Below are positions 7,400 to 34,293 of a DNA stretch of 64,000 bases, in pieces. The stretch spans positions 4,160,001-4,224,000 of the forward strand of contig CM000151.3 in the NCBI GenBank assembly GCA_000004695.1. Direction: 5' to 3'. The notes beneath the pieces are model-generated. The model had not been told where the DNA came from. It ran no database searches and saw only the letters and a list, made by a program, of their open reading frames with translations. Source of the DNA: Dictyostelium discoideum. Lineage: Eukaryota. The position numbers were made by a program, and so were the translations under genes. The stretch's first letter is position 1. Each line of letters opens with the position of its first letter.

Positions 7400-7691
7400 A
7401 TGAATTTTAGAGAACTTGATACATCAAATGGTGTTAAAGCTGCTGAAAGTTCATTCAGAACTAAAGTAGTTTTAGCAAGAGAAATTCCATGGAATGGATT
7501 TGCATCATCAAATTCAATCACTTCAGAACAATATAATTTAATCTCAAAATATGATAAACATACTGATGCTGAAAAGAAAGAGAAATTTGCTGCTGTAGGT
7601 TATATTTATTATTTAATTTAATTTTAGTTAGAATTCATAGTGTTTTTATTGTTTTTCAATGAAATCAAACCCCTGTCTCCCCCACCCTCAT

Positions 7692-7737
<46 letters not shown>

Positions 7738-9395
7738 CAAAATTTGATTTTTTATTTTTTTTTAATAATATTCTAAAAATAAAATATATATACTAACATT
7801 TTCACATATTTAATTTTTTTTATAATTTATAGAATAGCGCAAGTTATGTTAACTTTTTCGTTAACTTTATTAACTCAACCAGTAATATTGAAATCATCCA
7901 ATATTTACTCACTCTTATCAATGAAATTATTGAAAGTAGGTTTTTTATTTTTTTATTTTTTGGAAAATTTTCCAAACTTTTTTTTTTTTTTTTTTTTAAA
8001 ATCTTGTAAATACTAATATCTTTTTTTTTTTTCCCTATTTTTTTTTTTTTTTATTTTTTTTTTTTAGTTGACCCAAGAGCAGCAGGTGCATTCTCAAAAA
8101 TTACCAAAGATGACGATAAATCATACCCATATTCAGTATTCTTTAGATTATTAAATCGTGAAGATGCTTACACTAACCTCCACGCAAGTATTGCTCTTGC
8201 ACAAATCATGTGGTAATTATCTAAAACAAAAATATTTATTATTTAATTTAATTTTTTTTAAAATACTAATATTTCATTTTTTATTATTATTTTTTTTAAT
8301 TTAAATTAAAAAGTGCTGGTAAACCAACTCAAAATGATGTTGAATCATTTTTCAATTGGATTCTCAAATTATTAAGAAAGAATAACTCATCAGAAGTTGA
8401 AGTTGGTCTCATCGCTTTGCAATCACTCTTATTAAAGGATGATTTCAGAATTTTCTTTAATAATATTGATGGTTCTGCTTTGTATGTACAATTTTATTTA
8501 TTTTTTTTAAAAATCAATTAGAGAGTGTGTGTGAATGTAATAAATTAACAATTACTTATTTATTTTATTTTTTATAAACAATATTCTAGATTATTAAATA
8601 TTTTACAAGCATTATCAACCTCATCAGTTAATATTCAATTATTATATGAAACTATTTATGCAATTTGGTTATTAACCTATAATAAAGATATTGCAGCAGC
8701 TTATTCAGGAACTGGTTTAGTTGCAAATTTAGTTCAACTCGTCAAAACTGTAGCCAAGGAAAAGATTGTTAGATTATCATTATCAACCTTGAGAAATCTT
8801 TTAAACAATGGTAAGAGTAACGAAGAAATGATCGATAATGGTTTCGTTCGTATGTTAAATATTTTAAATATTAAAAAATGGGGTGATGATGATATTCCAG
8901 CTGATATTGAAGTTTTAATTAATGGTCTTGCTAAAGATATTGATAATATGAGGTAAATAATAATAATAATAATAATTTATAATTTTATAAATTTATTTAT
9001 ATATTAATACATTTTATTTTATTATCATTAGTTCATTTAATAAATATAAAACTGAAATTATTTCAGGTGAATTAGAATGGACACCAGTTCATAAATCAGA
9101 GAGATTCTGGAAAGAGAATATCTCAAAATTCGAAGAAAACAACTATCAAGTCATTAAACACTTACATCAAATTTTAAAGACAAGTCAATCAACTCCACTT
9201 CAATTATCAATTGCATGTCATGATCTTTGTGAATTCGTTAGACATCATAGTCGTGGTAAAGCTATCATGACTATTACAAATCAAACCAGATATCATGGGT
9301 ATGATGTCAAATCAAATGAAGAAGTAAAGAACCAAGCTTTATTCGCTTTACAAAAAATGATGTTAAATAATTGGGAATATTTAAATGCTAAATAA
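7400..9395 (+). CDS. vatH: V-type proton ATPase subunit H with six exons: join(7400..7594, 7833..7935, 8068..8212, 8314..8481, 8590..8952, 9032..9395)
   Basis: The hallmark V1-H segment is present: 'SSFNKYKTEIISGELEWTPVHKSERFWKENISKFEENNYQVIKHLHQIL...SIACHDLCEFVRHHSRGKAIMTITNQTRYHG...NQALFALQKMMLNNWEYLNAK'. Human ATP6V1H has 'LEWSPVHKSEKFWREN...AHDVGEYVRHYPRGK...AVQKLMVHNWEYLGK'. Intron donors are GTAGGT, GTAGGT, GTAATT, GTATGT and GTAAAT. Acceptors were placed so that the reading frame is kept. Intron 5 was placed at the acceptor at 9030-9031 so the frame is kept through the 'SSFNKYK' segment. Confidence 0.88.
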
Positions 9396-9605
9396 ATTAA
9401 TAAAATAAAATAAAATAAAATAAAATTTAATCAAAAAAAAAAAAAAAAAAAAAAAAGTACAAATAAATAAAAAAATAAATAAAAAAATAAAATAAAAACA
9501 AAACAAAAAGTAGTAATATATATAGAGTTAAAACAAAAGTAAACCAAACCAAACCAATAAATATTCTTTCTTTTTTTTTTATTATTTTTTTATTTTTTAT
9601 TAATT

Positions 9606-12600
9606 TTAATTTAACCAATCTAAAAAACAATTATAATCATAACTTTTTGATAATTGATTTTTTAAATGTTGTAATAGCGATGGATTATTTTTAATTTCAC
9701 CACCATTTTCATATAAATATTTTAAATAATCAATTCTATTTGAATCAATTGCTTTTGATATCATTGAATTTGTAATATTAAAATAATTACTATTTGGAAT
9801 TGAATTTATAATTAAATTTCTTAAATCAATATCAAAACAGTATTGACCAAATAATAATTCTAAATCTTTATCATTAATTGGTTTTAAACAATCATTACCA
9901 ATGAATAAATGTTTAAATTTGATAAACATTGGAATTGAAATATTATTACAATCTTTATAAATTATTCTATTCCAATATTCATTATAACCACTATTATCAT
10001 TATTATTATTATCAGTATTATTATGAATTAGTGATTTATAATGAATTTTAAAAATGTGATGAATAAAATCAGCATTTTTTAATAAAATTTCTGTTATTTC
10101 TTTATCAATAATTTTAAAATTTTCATTCATAATTAGTTCTAAAAAAGATTGATAAGATGAAAAACTAATTAATTTTTTAAAAGCGTGGTTGGATAATACC
10201 TTATTTGAGTCTACAATTAATTTTTTAGAAAATAAGAAAATTCTTCCCATAAATACTGGTTGGATATTTAAATGTTCACAATGATTACAATTGGTGAATG
10301 ATTGTCGATGTTGAGGTTGATGATATTGGTATCTTGTCATGTAAGGGAACGTATCGACTATTAGAGATCTATTATTTAAAAATTGATTTTGAATGTAATC
10401 TAAATGGTTGAGGAAAAGATCTTCTCTTTTAATGTCAAGGAAATAATGTAAATTTGAATTAATCGTTTCATTTAAGTAATCCTCTTCTGTGAATAATAAT
10501 GATTCATCATCTGTCATTGGTTTATAAGATAATGCATCAATTAATTTCTCTAATATTAAATCAAATGATGTATGTGTATCTGTATCTTTACCAAGTATGA
10601 AATCAAATGTAAAAACATGTAAATTTAAATACTTTCTAATATCATAACCTGGATGTTGAGGATTATCTGAACAATTGTAATAGGGGGTGGTTCCATCATC
10701 GTCGTCAGTGAATATCGAGTAAATGAAAGGGCGTGACATTATATATCTTGCTAATAGGGGTGACTTTATTGAAAGATAAAAAACTACATGATAAAGTGAA
10801 TGATCTATTATAATGTGTTTAGAACTACTACTACCACTACTTGAAATTTGATTATAAATATTTTTTATAACTTGAATTGTAACTTTTTTAACACTTAATA
10901 ATACTTTAAATAGATGATTTATAATTATATGAAAAGCATAATCTTGATCATTATCATTATCATCATCCTCTTCTTTTGTGTAGTTTTCATACATTTGTAA
11001 AAATATTTGAATTAAGGTTATTACTTTTTCACAATTATCATTTGAAATTGAATAAAATTTTGCACATTTTGATAAAGGTGAATAAATTGGATCTTTATAT
11101 CTAATTAAAAGTGATGATGAAATATCTTGAATTGGGAAAAACCCATTTCCAATCATTAATTTAATTTGATTAATTGATAATTTTTCAATTGATTTTAAAA
11201 ATATATGACTCGCTTCATCAATGAAATCATTGAAATTAATTTTTAATTTTAATAATTCATTCTCTTTAATTCTATCTGGAATTGATTTAATCACCCTTTT
11301 AACAAGATTCGGTTTAAAGAATTTAAATTGATTATCATTTAAATATTGAATGAAATTAATAATTTCTTCATCACTTAAATTTGATGAAAAAAAAAATTGT
11401 TTTTCTGCAAATAATCTAATTGTTATATTGAACCCATATAAAAAGAAATCATCACCTTTTGTTGAATACAAGTATTTCATTTGTTCAATATTACAATCTC
11501 TAATTGATTTTATAAATGGGTAGCTATAAAGAACCATTCTTGAATTAATTTGAGTATAATCATCATCATCTTGATTATTATTATTATTAAAATAAAGGTA
11601 ATGATCTCTTGGTAAACTACTAAACAAATTTGAAGCATAATTTAGTAATTGAAAATTTTGAAAATGAAAAAATTCTTGACTTTTAAAATTCCTAATTGAC
11701 CTTTTTAAAAATTCTTTTTCACAATTTTCAAAAATCCAATCAATTTGTAAATTATCTTTAATTTCAACTGATAATAATATTGAATTGCTATCTGCTATTA
11801 TTTTAATTAGTTCATTCCAACTATTTGGAAAGAAATTTAAAAATTCAATATTATTAATTGAATTTAGTAATTCTTTATATTCAATTTCTATATTTGATGA
11901 TGATGATGATGATGTTTTTGATAAATTTTTTAAAATATAATCTTGAATAATTTTATTATGATTGAAATGAAAACATTGAAAATAATCATAATTTGTTGTA
12001 TAGAAATTTATAAATTCAATCATTTCTTGTTTACTTTTATATTCACGTGAAATTGATAATGGTATAGTGGTTTCTCTTGAATGAGGTTTAGAATATTTTA
12101 ATTTAAATTGTTCTAAATCTTGTTTTGAAATGGTTTTCAATGCTTTTACATTAAATGTAGCTATTGAAATTTTAATAAAATCCATTAAATTATTTTCTTT
12201 AAGATTTGGTATAATTTCACCATATCTACTATAATAAACTAAATGGTCTAAATAAATTGAATCGTATAAATTTACAATTGTTGGATTTAGTAGTAAGTAT
12301 TTATGCAATTCTTTAACTCTTAATTCCCTATTATAATCTAATAGTATTTCATTGATTTTATATTTATTGTCAACTAGATTTGTTAAATTTAATTCATGGA
12401 AATTTAAATCAATTAATTTATTTTGAATATTTGAATTGTTAATTAACAATATTAAAGATAGGCCGAAATTTTCATTTTTTGGTATAAATTTTAAAATTCT
12501 TTCTCTACCATTTCCATTGAAATTTATATTGATATCTAAATTTGAGTAATCGGTATTGTATAGTTTAGGATTTGATAGAATTAATTCGATTTTCTCTTCA

Positions 12601-13217
12601 ATGGTTTTAATTGAGGTTGAATTTAAATTTGTGAATGTCAATGATCTATTCTTAAAATCTTGTGTGATAAATAAGTTTGGTGAATTTATTAAAATTGATA
12701 AAGTATTTGGTTGGAGGAATTCAATTGCACATTCTAATAATGTTGAATAAATTTGGAATGATGAAGATAGTGATGACAGATTTGAGAGTAATAATTGGAA
12801 TATGTTATAGGTATTTTTGAAACGAAGTGAATTTGATGTGATTATTGGTAAAGTTGGTAACATTTCATTTATTATTTTTATAAATTGATTTTTTTTATTT
12901 GATTGAAATAATTGGGTTAATAATTGTTCAATTAATGATGGATCATTTATTGAGAATAATTCTTTAATTGATTTTTTATTAATCTCTATAATTTCATCAT
13001 TTGAATTGATTTTTAATTTTAGTAATTCAAATTGTTCATTATTTATCATCCATTCCATCGATGTTATATTTTCAAATCTTTTTCTATTATCAACATGGTA
13101 TCCTAAATAGACATAATTTACCCATTCACATTTATGGATTTCTTTTAATATAATTGAAAATAAATATTTATTATGAAAAACTTTCCAAAATAATATCTCT
13201 ACATTTGGTGATTCCAT
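9606..13217 (-). CDS. Large Asn-rich hypothetical protein of about 1203 aa, apparently one exon, with no recognisable catalytic domain. It is a paralog of the gene at 30323-32629 through a shared N-terminal motif.
   Basis: An uninterrupted 1246-codon ORF is present. The likely true start is the ATG at 13217 (MESPNVEILFWKVFHNKYLFSIILKEIHKCEWVNYV). The upstream in-frame codons are poly-A/T-derived junk. Codon usage is Dictyostelium-like, with strong AAT/AAA/TTA bias. Confidence 0.6.
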   Translation of the reverse strand: MESPNVEILFWKVFHNKYLFSIILKEIHKCEWVNYVYLGYHVDNRKRFENITSMEWMINNEQFELLKLKINSNDEIIEINKKSIKELFSINDPSLIEQLLTQLFQSNKKNQFIKIINEMLPTLPIITSNSLRFKNTYNIFQLLLSNLSSLSSSFQIYSTLLECAIEFLQPNTLSILINSPNLFITQDFKNRSLTFTNLNSTSIKTIEEKIELILSNPKLYNTDYSNLDININFNGNGRERILKFIPKNENFGLSLILLINNSNIQNKLIDLNFHELNLTNLVDNKYKINEILLDYNRELRVKELHKYLLLNPTIVNLYDSIYLDHLVYYSRYGEIIPNLKENNLMDFIKISIATFNVKALKTISKQDLEQFKLKYSKPHSRETTIPLSISREYKSKQEMIEFINFYTTNYDYFQCFHFNHNKIIQDYILKNLSKTSSSSSSNIEIEYKELLNSINNIEFLNFFPNSWNELIKIIADSNSILLSVEIKDNLQIDWIFENCEKEFLKRSIRNFKSQEFFHFQNFQLLNYASNLFSSLPRDHYLYFNNNNNQDDDDYTQINSRMVLYSYPFIKSIRDCNIEQMKYLYSTKGDDFFLYGFNITIRLFAEKQFFFSSNLSDEEIINFIQYLNDNQFKFFKPNLVKRVIKSIPDRIKENELLKLKINFNDFIDEASHIFLKSIEKLSINQIKLMIGNGFFPIQDISSSLLIRYKDPIYSPLSKCAKFYSISNDNCEKVITLIQIFLQMYENYTKEEDDDNDNDQDYAFHIIINHLFKVLLSVKKVTIQVIKNIYNQISSSGSSSSKHIIIDHSLYHVVFYLSIKSPLLARYIMSRPFIYSIFTDDDDGTTPYYNCSDNPQHPGYDIRKYLNLHVFTFDFILGKDTDTHTSFDLILEKLIDALSYKPMTDDESLLFTEEDYLNETINSNLHYFLDIKREDLFLNHLDYIQNQFLNNRSLIVDTFPYMTRYQYHQPQHRQSFTNCNHCEHLNIQPVFMGRIFLFSKKLIVDSNKVLSNHAFKKLISFSSYQSFLELIMNENFKIIDKEITEILLKNADFIHHIFKIHYKSLIHNNTDNNNNDNSGYNEYWNRIIYKDCNNISIPMFIKFKHLFIGNDCLKPINDKDLELLFGQYCFDIDLRNLIINSIPNSNYFNITNSMISKAIDSNRIDYLKYLYENGGEIKNNPSLLQHLKNQLSKSYDYNCFLDWLN

Positions 13218-14380: not shown

Positions 14381-16090
14381 ATGGCAACAAAAGGATTAAA
14401 TATGGATGATTTAGATCTTTTATTAGCAGATTTGGGAAGACCAAAGAGTTCAATAAAAGTAACAGCAACTGTTCAAACAACCGCTACACCATCAAGTGGT
14501 AAAAATTTTGATAATAGTGATATTCAAAATGAAATTCAATCAATTATTGAAGAATTGGACCAACAACCACAAACCGTTCAAACCATTAGTACACCAGCAC
14601 CAAAAAATCATAATACAACCACCACAACTGCAAGTTTCTCAGTTTCATCACAACCAGCACCACAACCACCACAACAATCACAACAAATTGATGGTTTGGA
14701 TGATTTGGATGAATTGATGGAATCATTGAATACATCAATCTCAACTGCACTCAAAGCAGTACCAACCACACCAGAAGAACATATTACACATGCCAATTCA
14801 AATTCACCACCACCATCATTACATAAGAATACATCTTCAACCAATTCTGCATCTTCATTATCACGCCCAAATAATAATCCAAGTGTTGTTTCAACACCAC
14901 AACCAGGAAAAGTTACATCAACTGCAACCATTACCACTAAAAAACAACCAGCACTTTCAAAAGCAACTTTGGAAACAACTAGTGGTAATAATGTATATAG
15001 TTCACAACCATCACAATCACAACCACAACCATATAAAGTTACAGCAACTAATTCACAACCAAGTAGTGATGACCTTGATGAATTATTAAAAGGTCTTAGT
15101 CCATCCACCACTACTACCACTACTGTACCACCACCAGTTCAACGTGATCAACATCAACATCATCATCAACATCAACATCATCATCATCATAATCCAAATC
15201 ATAATCAAACTCAAACTGTAACAACACAAATTAATATTGGTAGAACAAATACTCCAAACAATAACAATAACAATAATACAAATTCACCAAAAGTTGTACA
15301 TGGTGATGATTTAGATAATTTATTAAATAATTTAACATCACAAGTTAAAGATATTGATTCAACAGGACCAACATCACGTGGTACATGTGGTGGTTGTCGT
15401 AAACCAATCTTTGGTGAAACTATTCAAGCAATGGGTAAATTCTATCATCCAGAACATTTCTGTTGTCATAATTGTCAAAATCCATTGGGTACTAAAAACT
15501 ATTATGAACAAGAATCATTACCACATTGTGAAAAATGTTATCAAGAATTGTTTTGTGCACGTTGCGCTCATTGTGATGAACCAATCTCTGATCGTTGTAT
15601 CACTGCTTTGGGTAAGAAATGGCATGTACACCACTTTGTTTGCACTCAATGTTTGAAACCATTTGAAGGTGGTAATTTTTTCGAACGTGATGGTCGTCCA
15701 TATTGTGAGGCCGATTTCTATTCAACATTTGCCGTTCGTTGTGGTGGTTGCAATTCTCCAATTCGTGGTGAATGTATCAATGCTTTGGGTACTCAATGGC
15801 ATCCAGAACATTTTGTTTGCCAATATTGTCAAAAGAGTTTCACAAATGGTCAATTCTTTGAATTTGGTGGTAAACCATATTGTGATGTCCATTATCATCA
15901 ACAAGCTGGCTCAGTTTGTTCTGGCTGTGGAAAAGCTGTCTCTGGTCGTTGTGTAGATGCTCTTGATAAAAAATGGCATCCAGAACATTTTGTTTGCGCT
16001 TTCTGTATGAATCCATTAGCTGGTGGTTCTTATACCGCTAATAATGGTAAACCATATTGTAAAGGTTGTCATAATAAATTATTTGCTTAA
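14381..16090 (+). CDS. paxB: Paxillin homolog of 569 aa, a single exon, with N-terminal LD motifs and four C-terminal LIM domains
   Basis: LD motifs are present: 'MDDLDLLLADL', 'LDDLDELMESL', 'DDLDELLKGL', 'DDLDNLLNNL'. Four tandem LIM domains have the spacing CGGCRKPI...HPEHFCCHNCQNPL...CEKCY / CAHCDEPI...WHVHHFVCTQC...YCEADF / CGGCNSPI...WHPEHFVCQYC...YCDVHY / CSGCGKAV...WHPEHFVCAFC...YCKGCH. The length and features match Dictyostelium PaxB. Confidence 0.95.
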   Translation: MATKGLNMDDLDLLLADLGRPKSSIKVTATVQTTATPSSGKNFDNSDIQNEIQSIIEELDQQPQTVQTISTPAPKNHNTTTTTASFSVSSQPAPQPPQQSQQIDGLDDLDELMESLNTSISTALKAVPTTPEEHITHANSNSPPPSLHKNTSSTNSASSLSRPNNNPSVVSTPQPGKVTSTATITTKKQPALSKATLETTSGNNVYSSQPSQSQPQPYKVTATNSQPSSDDLDELLKGLSPSTTTTTTVPPPVQRDQHQHHHQHQHHHHHNPNHNQTQTVTTQINIGRTNTPNNNNNNNTNSPKVVHGDDLDNLLNNLTSQVKDIDSTGPTSRGTCGGCRKPIFGETIQAMGKFYHPEHFCCHNCQNPLGTKNYYEQESLPHCEKCYQELFCARCAHCDEPISDRCITALGKKWHVHHFVCTQCLKPFEGGNFFERDGRPYCEADFYSTFAVRCGGCNSPIRGECINALGTQWHPEHFVCQYCQKSFTNGQFFEFGGKPYCDVHYHQQAGSVCSGCGKAVSGRCVDALDKKWHPEHFVCAFCMNPLAGGSYTANNGKPYCKGCHNKLFA

Positions 16091-30322: not shown

Positions 30323-32629
<2,307 letters not shown>

Positions 32630-33412: not shown

Positions 33413-34293
33413 TTAATAAATATTATTGGTGGAGAGTAAAAAAAAAAAAATTAAAAAATTAAAAAAAAAACTCTTACCTGAACCACTACCACTTGCACTT
33501 CCACTACCTGATGAGCTACCACTGCCTGATGATGAACCACTGCCTGATGAGCTACCGCTACCACTACCTGATGATGAACCAGATGATGAACCAGATGATG
33601 AACCAGATGATGAACCAGATGATGAACCAGATGATGATGATGATGATGAACCAGATGATGATGATGATGAACCAGATGATGATGTACCAGATGATGAACC
33701 ACATTGTGACCAACCATTACAATCACCATTACTCCAAGTAGTCCAAGCATCATAACCTTGAGCATTTAAGACAGCAAGAGCACATTGTGCATTGATATCT
33801 GGGTTGAATAAATCACTTGGGGTTGAACAAGCAGTACATAATTCCCCGCAATGTTCAGTTAAGATTTGCCATAAACCTGAAGCACTTGATGGATTATAAG
33901 CTTCTACAATTTTTTCAATTTTATAATTATTATTGTATTTTTAGTTAGTAAAAAAATAAAAAAAAAATAAAAAAAAAAAGTGGAAAATAAAAAAAAAAAA
34001 AAATTGGTAACCAAAAAAAATAAAAAAATAAAAACATACGTGGATTCCAGCTTGATTCATAATAACTGATACACTATTTTTCATTTAATTTTAAAATAAT
34101 AATAATTAATAATTAATAAATAATTCATTTAAAAAAAAAAAAAAAAAATAATAATACATACAATCATATTAGTGGCGGTGCTACCTGAAAAGTATTGACC
34201 TGCTAATGATTGCATTTGTGAACATGATAAGGCTTGACCATTTGCGATGGCAACGGCAACAGCCATTAAAGCAGCGACAGATTTGAAGAACAT
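33413..34293 (-). CDS. Secreted lytic-transglycosylase/goose-lysozyme-like (SLT, GH23-type) domain protein. It has a signal peptide, a long Ser/Gly-rich linker and a hydrophobic C-terminal tail. It has three exons on the minus strand: join(34293..34162, 34073..34040, 33903..33413). The 3' end is uncertain.
   Basis: Exon 1 gives '[44 protein letters not shown]' and ends at a GTATGT donor. Exon 2 gives '[11 protein letters not shown]' and also ends at a GTATGT donor. Exon 3 gives '[78 protein letters not shown](S/G)n...[23 protein letters not shown]'. The segment '[20 protein letters not shown]...[11 protein letters not shown]' fits the SLT consensus E-S-x-(F/W)-N-P-x-A-...-G-L-(M/W)-Q and the AYNAG-like motif. 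Exon phases were checked and total 657 nt. A GTAAGA at 33479-74 could instead be a donor to an unseen terminal exon. Confidence 0.55.

What the first reader, a model, noticed from the sequence alone, without database searches (positions are those of the whole stretch)
9606..13217. Two giant Asn-rich orphan proteins sharing an N-terminal 'LFWKVFxNKxLF...EWM' signature
The 1203-aa gene and the 768-aa gene at 30323-32629 lie on opposite strands about 17 kb apart. They begin with nearly the same about 50-residue module ('LFWKVFHNKYLFSIILKEI...CEWVNY...EWMINN' and 'LFWKVFKNKILFKQIFKAS...YECNKYEWMVRN'). They are otherwise low-complexity and have no known domain. This points to a lineage-specific, probably expanded family defined by a conserved N-terminal module that could be a targeting or interaction domain.
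Basis: seen in the sequence. Interest (0 to 1): 0.55.

Follow-up and report, generated by a model that had tools for sequence, protein, structure and literature searches.

The report
Dictyostelid N-terminal module, ankyrin-like protein family
The two large proteins really do share a conserved ~100-residue N-terminal module, but they are not orphans: they belong to a large, unnamed, social-amoeba-specific family of helical-repeat (ankyrin-like) proteins, and their conserved N-terminal hairpin may dock them onto the Skp1 ubiquitin-ligase adaptor.

Summary
The window is Dictyostelium discoideum AX4 chromosome 2. G1 (9606-13217, minus strand, 1203 aa) is DDB_G0274845. G2 (30323-32629, plus strand, 768 aa) is an intact ORF.

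The shared N-terminal module is real: BLASTP E=1e-7 after composition correction, and 0 of 2000 shuffles reach the observed score. The rest of the two proteins is unrelated.

"Orphan" and "low-complexity" are wrong:
- A profile of the module finds 128 cluster representatives at E<=1e-3, almost always at the N-terminus. Every member whose source names an organism is a dictyostelid (five genera).
- G1 has full-length paralogues and a syntenic orthologue (dN/dS 0.35).
- Both proteins are predicted to be folded all-alpha repeat proteins.
- Distant members carry canonical ankyrin repeats directly after the module. G1-type members give only borderline ankyrin signals.

The module consists of a highly conserved helical hairpin (LFWKVFxNKYLFxxIF), a variable loop and two ankyrin-like helix pairs (EWM...LLKxK).

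No Pfam model covers it, and it does not match canonical F-boxes. However, three published Skp1 co-IP interactors, whose "divergent F-box-like" sequences were aligned by hand, score as this module.

Best reading: a lineage-specific adaptor family, possibly SCF substrate receptors. The Skp1 link is inferred for G1 and G2, not shown.

The parts
9606..13217 (-). G1 coding sequence (1203 aa plus stop), DDB_G0274845, single exon
   Evidence: ORF. 100% identical to the annotated AX4 protein. Syntenic orthologue with dN/dS 0.35.
12903..13217 (-). G1 N-terminal module (residues 1-105)
   Evidence: Scores 124 bits against the module HMM, envelope 1-104. Aligns to G2 at E=1e-7.
13131..13208 (-). G1 conserved helical hairpin, residues 4-29 (EILFWKVFHNKYLFSIILKEI). 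F10, N16 and I23 are >=90% conserved in the family.
   Evidence: AF2 helices 4-15 and 17-29. Near-invariant columns in the 100-sequence alignment A4.
12903..13070 (-). G1 ankyrin-like half of the module, residues 50-105. It has two helix pairs: MEWMIN / FELLKLKIN and KSIKELF / SLIEQLLTQLFQS. L66 and K69 are >=90% conserved.
   Evidence: AF2 helices 54-59, 63-71, 81-87 and 93-105, pLDDT 82-89. Conservation.
12528..12902 (-). G1 residues ~106-230: degenerate ankyrin-like repeats that follow the module (e.g. LLECAIEFLQPNTLSILINSPN)
10338..10925 (-). G1 residues ~765-960: the block best conserved among G1-type paralogues (FYLSIKSPxLxxYI...FTFDFI...)
   Evidence: Local BLASTP hits to P0013, P0071, P0045, P0025, P0030, P0054 and P0003.
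9606..9833 (-). G1 conserved C-terminal tail, residues 1129-1203, containing an ankyrin-like repeat (ISKAIDSNRIDYLKYLYENGGEI)
   Evidence: Conserved in P0013, P0021, P0054 and P0085. The profile A7's best PDB hits are FEM1B, ANKEF1 and ankyrin-1/2; the printed FEM1B alignment is in repeat register. E=0.17-2, not significant.
30323..32629 (+). G2 coding sequence (768 aa plus stop), single ORF
   Evidence: ORF. 63%-identical relative P0032 in D. citrinum and 34% relative P0073. The exact product is not on record in the protein collection.
30323..30616 (+). G2 N-terminal module (residues 1-98)
   Evidence: Scores 86 bits against the module HMM, envelope 1-98. AF2 pLDDT is 75-96 over 1-110 except for the loop at 32-36.
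30365..30421 (+). G2 hairpin motif, residues 15-33 (LFWKVFKNKILFKQIFKAS)
   Evidence: Motif scan. AF2 helices 6-21 and 23-29.
30464..30517 (+). G2 first ankyrin-like helix pair, residues 48-65 (YEWMVRNGYLELLKDKVF)
   Evidence: AF2 helices 48-53 and 57-65, pLDDT >90. By eye it aligns with the ANK consensus LHLAARNGHLEVVKLLL, but hhalign against a DARPin consensus was not significant.
30653..30763 (+). G2 run of 37 serines (residues 111-147) inside a predicted disordered linker (113-186)
   Evidence: Homopolymer run. pLDDT about 30.
30881..32626 (+). G2 helical-repeat body, residues 187-768. Unrelated in sequence to the G1 body.
   Evidence: AF2 helix pairs 196-296 at pLDDT 84-95, then mixed confidence. 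The body profile matches only P0032, P0073 and P0079. Foldseek gives only generic alpha-solenoids.

Best explanation
G1 and G2 are two divergent members of a large multigene family specific to Dictyostelia.

Shown:
- Every member has an N-terminal module of about 100 residues. It consists of (i) a very conserved two-helix hairpin, consensus E-x-LFWKVFrNKYLfxxIF; (ii) a variable, poorly predicted loop; (iii) two ankyrin-like helix pairs, consensus KFKdIxSLEWMIxNxxxxLLKdKLxxN followed by I..lf....d.ell..L.
- The module is followed by an all-alpha repeat solenoid that differs between subfamilies. Distant members, including those of other dictyostelid genera, have canonical ankyrin repeats. G1-type proteins have degenerate ankyrin-like repeats plus subfamily-specific blocks. 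G2-type proteins have an unrelated helical body.
- G1 is a constrained gene that evolves faster than its neighbours.

Inferred mechanism: the proteins are modular adaptors. The invariant hairpin docks all members onto one shared partner, and the fast-diverging solenoid supplies variable binding surfaces. The best candidate partner is Skp1 of SCF ubiquitin ligases. On that reading the module acts like a highly divergent F-box, and the family would be lineage-specific candidate substrate receptors.

My confidence is about 0.9 for the family and its architecture, and about 0.4 for the Skp1/F-box-like function.
For: Family:
- 128 representatives at E<=1e-3, with the module at the N-terminus.
- The named members are all dictyostelid.
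- No relatives in viral or phage collections.

Architecture:
- AF2 models are all-alpha with paired helices.
- 14 of 50 sampled members have Pfam ANK repeats, down to E=2e-35. In some (P0125, P0127, P0117) the first ANK hit lies about 100-125 residues in, right after the module; in others the best hit lies further along.
- The G1-subfamily profile hits mostly ANK domains in PDB; the printed ankyrin-1/2 alignment is in repeat register, best E=0.002.

Real gene: syntenic orthologue with dN/dS 0.35, against 0.10-0.12 for two neighbours.

Shared-partner idea:
- Hairpin residues F10, N16 and I23 are >=90% conserved across 100 sequences, while the bodies are unalignable.
- Boland et al. 2022 (PMC9485057, Fig. 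S3) list three Skp1 co-IP interactors with hand-aligned 'F-box-like' sequences: DDB_G0294633 (ankyrin), DDB_G0268782 (LRR+) and DDB_G0293774 (LRR/FNIP).
- These score 20.4, 18.7 and 12.5 bits against the module HMM. All 37 canonical Dictyostelium F-boxes score <=4.3 bits.
- The two LRR-type fragments align to the hairpin only. This suggests the hairpin is a portable unit placed in front of different repeat scaffolds, as F-boxes are.
Against: - No sequence link to F-box. No Pfam F-box or F-box-like hit in 100 N-termini, even at E<=10. hhalign of the module profile against a Dictyostelium F-box profile gives 0.25% probability.
- G1 (DDB_G0274845) is not in the held supplement of the Skp1 interactome paper. 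G2's identifier is unknown.
- The three interactor fragments are short, were read by machine from a PDF and had loops removed. Co-IP does not prove direct binding, and the authors call such assignments speculative.
- The ankyrin nature of the G1 and G2 bodies is not significant by Pfam, by hhalign or by Foldseek, which returns only generic solenoids at TM about 0.1-0.2.
- The fold of the hairpin could not be searched on its own.
Confidence: 0.5

Rival explanations
1. The module is purely structural. It is an N-terminal cap plus the first two degenerate repeats of an ankyrin-derived solenoid, conserved because it nucleates folding. There is no common binding partner, and members are unrelated scaffolds with diverse functions.
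For: - The second half of the module has ankyrin-like helix-pair geometry.
- The module directly abuts canonical ANK repeats in distant members.
- There is no sequence similarity to F-box.
- N- and C-terminal repeats of ANK arrays are known to diverge from internal repeats (established knowledge).
Against: - The hairpin is far more conserved than any repeat in the family.
- Hairpin-only matches occur in two LRR/FNIP-type Skp1 interactors, so the hairpin is not tied to ankyrin repeats.
- Mini-proteins of about 210 aa made of the module plus about 100 residues are conserved across species.
Confidence: 0.3
2. The module is an interaction or targeting domain for a partner other than Skp1, for example a different ligase adaptor, a cytoskeletal or membrane site, or self-association. 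The Skp1 co-IP of three relatives would then be indirect.
For: - Same conservation and position arguments as the main explanation.
- There is no F-box signature.
- Some members place the module internally, after a SAP-like motif. That is unusual for an F-box.
Against: The only experimental association found for proteins carrying the module is with Skp1, across two antibodies and two life stages. No other partner is indicated.
Confidence: 0.17
3. The shared N-terminus is a chance or compositional match between two AT-rich-genome ORFs, or the ORFs are not real genes.
For: The genome is about 20% GC, and the proteins are rich in Asn, Ile, Lys and Leu.
Against: - Composition-corrected E=1e-7.
- z=12 against shuffles.
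- 59 database representatives at E<=1e-10.
- Purifying selection and synteny.
Confidence: 0.01

Closest known systems
F-box proteins with repeat-type substrate receptors (SCF adaptors). Examples are the Dictyostelium F-box/ankyrin candidates DDB_G0285411 and DDB_G0290983, and Legionella AnkB.
   Same: A short helical N-terminal element is followed by a variable protein-interaction repeat array. The family is large, lineage-specific and fast-evolving. Three proteins carrying the module or its hairpin co-purify with Skp1 (PMC9485057).
   Different: There is no LPxE(I/L) motif. Neither Pfam nor profile-profile comparison detects similarity. A 20-25-residue loop splits the element. Skp1 binding has not been shown for G1 or G2.
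Ankyrin-repeat proteins (Pfam clan Ank)
   Different: G1 and G2 have no Pfam ANK hit. hhalign is not significant. Most of the 1203-aa and 768-aa bodies resemble only generic alpha-solenoids.
Other repeat-plus-ligase-adaptor architectures: poxvirus ANK/PRANC, ASB (ankyrin plus SOCS box), FEM1 (ankyrin receptor of CUL2), and F-box plus FNIP/FGxxFN LRR proteins of Megavirus and Dictyostelium
   Same: The logic is a constant docking element fused to an expanded, variable repeat scaffold. FEM1B recurs among the weak sequence and structure matches. PMC9525666 describes F-box-FNIP fusions.
   Different: The docking element here is N-terminal and unrelated in sequence to PRANC, SOCS box or F-box. No viral relatives were found.

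Membership tests
Dictyostelid 'LFWKVF-module' family (unnamed; defined here) | Significant match to the ~110-position N-terminal module HMM, located at or near the N-terminus | tested here: met
   G1 scores 124 bits (envelope 1-104) and G2 86 bits (1-98). G1's protein (P0001) scores E=2.7e-31 in the library search. Caveat: both N-termini are among the 8 sequences the profile was built from, so these scores are partly circular. Independent support is the G1-G2 pairwise E=1e-7 and the 120+ other hits.
Dictyostelid 'LFWKVF-module' family (unnamed; defined here) | Near-invariant residues F10, N16, I23, L66, K69 (G1 numbering) | tested here: met
   All five are present in G1 and G2. They are >=90% conserved in the 100-sequence alignment A4.
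Ankyrin repeat (Pfam Ank, Ank_2-5) | Pfam ANK model hit at or above the gathering score | tested here: not met
   No ANK hit for G1 or G2 even at E<=10. G1-type relatives are sub-threshold only: P0045 Ank_2 E=0.0037, P0003 E=0.046. Distant family members do meet it.
Ankyrin repeat (Pfam Ank, Ank_2-5) | ~33-residue helix-turn-helix repeats stacking into an ANK solenoid (structural similarity to solved ANK domains) | tested here: inconclusive
F-box (Pfam PF00646 / PF12937) | Sequence match to the F-box profile (LPxEIL...W three-helix motif) | tested here: not met
   No F-box family appears among the Pfam hits of 100 N-termini at E<=10. hhalign against a 37-sequence Dictyostelium F-box profile gives 0.25% probability. 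Canonical F-boxes score <=4.3 bits on the module HMM.
F-box (Pfam PF00646 / PF12937) | Direct binding to Skp1 | not testable with these tools
   The evidence is indirect and from the literature only. Three proteins carrying the module or its hairpin are in Skp1 co-IPs (PMC9485057 Fig. S3). G1 is not listed in the held supplement.
F-box (Pfam PF00646 / PF12937) | Three-helix F-box fold | not tested
Whole-chain searches are insensitive to a 30-residue element.

The most novel reading that the evidence does not exclude
The LFWKVF hairpin is a previously undefined Skp1-docking (or other hub-docking) element. It is not homologous to the canonical F-box, or is so diverged that it forms its own class. 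Dictyostelids have fused it to ankyrin-like, LRR/FNIP and other scaffolds. This would create many rapidly evolving substrate receptors that current F-box catalogues miss, possibly used in development, kin discrimination or defence against pathogens.
Probability: 0.15. Interest if true: 0.7.

Novelty: new variant of a known kind. Interest (0 to 1): 0.48.

Why it matters
F-box proteins are hard to catalogue in protists. The 2022 Skp1 interactome study noted many interactors with only speculative, hand-aligned F-box-like sequences.

This work shows that three of those sequences belong to one well-defined, statistically robust module. That module heads at least 128 protein clusters across Dictyostelia, all annotated as hypothetical.

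The module HMM gives a concrete way to test whether a whole hidden class of SCF adaptors exists in social amoebae. It also allows dozens of uncharacterised large genes to be annotated at once.

If the Skp1 link fails, the result is still useful but ordinary. It would be a lineage-specific expansion of ankyrin-derived scaffold proteins with a distinctive N-terminal cap.

Tried and rejected
- The third word-indexed homologue search, using the 100-sequence module alignment, returned nothing: 403 candidates and none scoring.
- tblastn against phage records and a viral-contig scan found no relatives.
- The module profile against PDB sequences gave only spurious RNase III matches at E>=0.04.
- hhalign of the module against a DARPin consensus, and of the G1/G2 bodies against the ANK bodies of family members and the DARPin, was not significant.
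- Foldseek against PDB for both models gave generic importin/exportin-type solenoids, with no hit at E<=1e-3.
- Literature searches for DDB_G0274845, DDB_G0294633, DDB_G0268782 and DDB_G0293774 found no papers.
- The G2 product is not on record, so its annotated model and identifier remain unknown.
- The coiled-coil idea is rejected. The models show short paired helices, not long coiled coils.
- The tandem local expansion idea is rejected. Only two copies of the motif occur in the 64 kb window.
Full report
Observation. The window has about 20% GC. The 1203-aa product of 9606-13217 (minus strand) is 100% identical to DDB_G0274845 of Dictyostelium discoideum AX4, on an 8.48-Mb contig. The second ORF, 30323-32629 (plus strand, 768 aa), is intact. 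Its exact product is not on record in the protein collection.

The two proteins align only over their first ~96 residues. BLASTP gives E=1e-7 with compositional adjustment. The Smith-Waterman score is 118 against 34.9 +/- 6.9 for 2000 shuffles, none reaching it. The bodies score no better than shuffles, with 47 of 200 reaching the observed value. A six-frame motif scan finds no third copy in the window. Neither protein hits Pfam.

The labels 'orphan', 'low-complexity' and 'Asn-rich' do not hold. Only 0.4% (G1) and 7.2% (G2) of 20-aa windows are low-entropy, the latter mainly a 37-Ser run. Asn at 11.5% and 14.1% is close to the family pool of 9.8%.

The family. A profile of eight N-termini was searched exhaustively against 1.84 billion representative proteins. 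It found 128 at E<=1e-3 and 59 at E<=1e-10. The match lies at the extreme N-terminus in nearly all, and many proteins are 900-1400 aa long. Thirty representatives had their source checked. Twenty-nine are named and come from D. discoideum strains, D. cf. discoideum, D. citrinum, D. dimigraforme, D. purpureum, Cavenderia fasciculata, Heterostelium album, Acytostelium subglobosum or Synstelium polycarpum. Almost all are 'hypothetical', and UniRef calls some 'Ankyrin repeat-containing protein'. The thirtieth, P0112, is a weak (E=8e-5), non-N-terminal match from an unnamed ENA metagenome cluster and is probably spurious. Phage and viral collections hold no relatives.

G1 is not an orphan. Local BLASTP shows full-length homology to a subfamily of 1000-1400-aa proteins, several of them D. 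discoideum paralogues: P0013, P0045 and P0021. The shared blocks lie at about 1-74, 400-640, 765-960 and 1129-1202. G2 belongs to a different subfamily (P0032 63%, P0073 34%, weakly P0079) and shares only the module with G1. A set of ~210-aa mini-proteins made of the module plus about 100 residues is conserved across four species.

Gene reality and rate. The D. cf. discoideum orthologue lies in a syntenic locus. For G1, dN/dS is 0.35 (aa identity 88.7%) and is fairly even along the protein (0.30-0.41). Two neighbours give 0.12 and 0.10. G1 is therefore constrained, but its dN is about 2.5-5 times higher than theirs.

Anatomy. AlphaFold2 with family alignments gives all-alpha models, with mean pLDDT 74 for G1 and 66 for G2. 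In G1 the module is helix 4-15, helix 17-29, a low-confidence loop at 30-53, and then helix pairs 54-59/63-71 and 81-87/93-105. G2 is equivalent, followed by a disordered poly-Ser linker (113-186) and more helix pairs. Across 100 module sequences, F10, N16, I23, L66 and K69 are >=90% conserved. The HMM consensus reads EILFWKVFRNKYLFKLIFKHI...NRIKFKDIKSLEWMIKNKQFELLKDKLKSNEYLEI.

Relation to ankyrin repeats. Of 50 sampled members, 14 have Pfam ANK repeats, down to E=2e-35. In P0125, P0127 and P0117 the first ANK hit lies about 100-125 residues in, directly after the module. In P0099, P0130 and P0133 the best hits lie further along, at about 139-252.

G1-type proteins give only sub-threshold ANK hits at the corresponding position: P0045 at E=0.0037, P0003 at 0.046 and P0071 at 0.06. 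A G1-subfamily profile of residues ~50-260 retrieves mostly ANK domains from PDB, 22 of 26 listed rows. The best is ankyrin-1/2 at E=0.0021, whose printed alignment is in repeat register, followed by TRPC4/5, FEM1B, ANKEF1 and ankyrin-3. The conserved C-terminal tail does the same at non-significant E of 0.17-2.

Function of the module. No Pfam model covers it. None of the 100 N-termini shows a recurrent Pfam signal, and none hits F-box. No PDB sequence matches it. A profile built from 37 canonical Dictyostelium F-boxes shows no similarity to it (0.25% probability).

The paper those F-boxes come from (Boland et al. 2022, PMC9485057, Fig. S3) also lists Skp1 co-IP interactors with hand-aligned 'F-box-like' sequences. 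Three of these resemble the module:
- DDB_G0294633, class 'ps', Ankyrin: ...ILFSKILSNF...SRKYKDIISLEWMIN
- DDB_G0268782, class 'pu', LRR+: MDKLFQSVFNNIYISRLIY
- DDB_G0293774, class 'pvs', LRR/FNIP: CWRNEIILNKLIFH

Scored against the module HMM they reach 20.4, 18.7 and 12.5 bits, while every canonical F-box scores <=4.3 bits. The two LRR-type fragments align to the hairpin only. This suggests that the hairpin is a portable unit placed before different repeat scaffolds, and that proteins carrying it associate with Skp1.

The caveats are real. The fragments are short, were read by machine and had loops removed. Co-IP is not direct binding. G1 is absent from the held supplement, and the authors call such assignments speculative.

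Conclusion. The descriptors 'orphan' and 'low-complexity' are wrong.

The most likely mechanism is a modular adaptor. A conserved N-terminal hairpin docks to a common partner, with Skp1 the best candidate, and a fast-diverging ankyrin-like solenoid provides variable binding surfaces. Membership in the F-box family was tested by sequence and not met, so I claim at most that the module may work like an F-box.

The main rival is that the module is only a structural cap of an ankyrin-derived solenoid. The decisive tests are complex prediction or pull-down with Skp1, and a hairpin-only HMM census of the AX4 proteome.

Noticed in passing
window 30653-30763 (G2 residues 111-147): A run of 37 serine codons lies between the module and the body of G2 and is predicted disordered. 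The D. citrinum relative P0032 (715 aa) has a short, mixed Ser-rich stretch there instead, so the tract looks like a recent expansion.
   Followed up: partly
window 30323-32629: The exact 768-aa product of G2 is not on record in the 15-billion-protein collection, although G1's product is. The AX4 annotation of this gene may use a different start or splice model, or may omit the gene.
   Followed up: partly
family members P0074, P0106-P0108, P0118-P0120, P0129 (not in the window): In a subset of members the module is internal, 75-380 residues from the N-terminus. Several of these have an upstream motif that looks SAP-like by eye; only P0119 gives a Pfam SAP hit (E=1.3e-4, 22.0 bits against a cut-off of 23.9). 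This is an unexpected pairing if the module is F-box-like.
   Followed up: partly
family members P0004-P0010 (not in the window): Mini-proteins of about 210 aa, made of the module plus roughly 100 further residues, are conserved in D. discoideum, D. citrinum, D. dimigraforme and D. purpureum. They could be module-only regulators or competitors.
   Followed up: partly
window 14381-16090 (+), about 7400-9470 (+), and L001: G1's neighbours are a LIM-domain gene and a V-ATPase subunit H gene. The whole ~20-kb region is collinear with D. cf. discoideum at 85-93% nucleotide identity.
   Followed up: partly
window 33426-33755 (+): An ORF encodes an acidic Pro/Asp/Glu repeat (PLPDELPLP... [11 protein letters not shown]). 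It could be low-complexity coding sequence or a chance ORF.
   Followed up: no
module HMM positions 12-23 against the end of the F-box profile: The only alignment hhalign produced, and it is not significant, places the module's E-x-LFWKVF on the C-terminal 'LWKNL' motif of Dictyostelium F-boxes rather than on the LPxE start. This differs from the published hand alignment.
   Followed up: no
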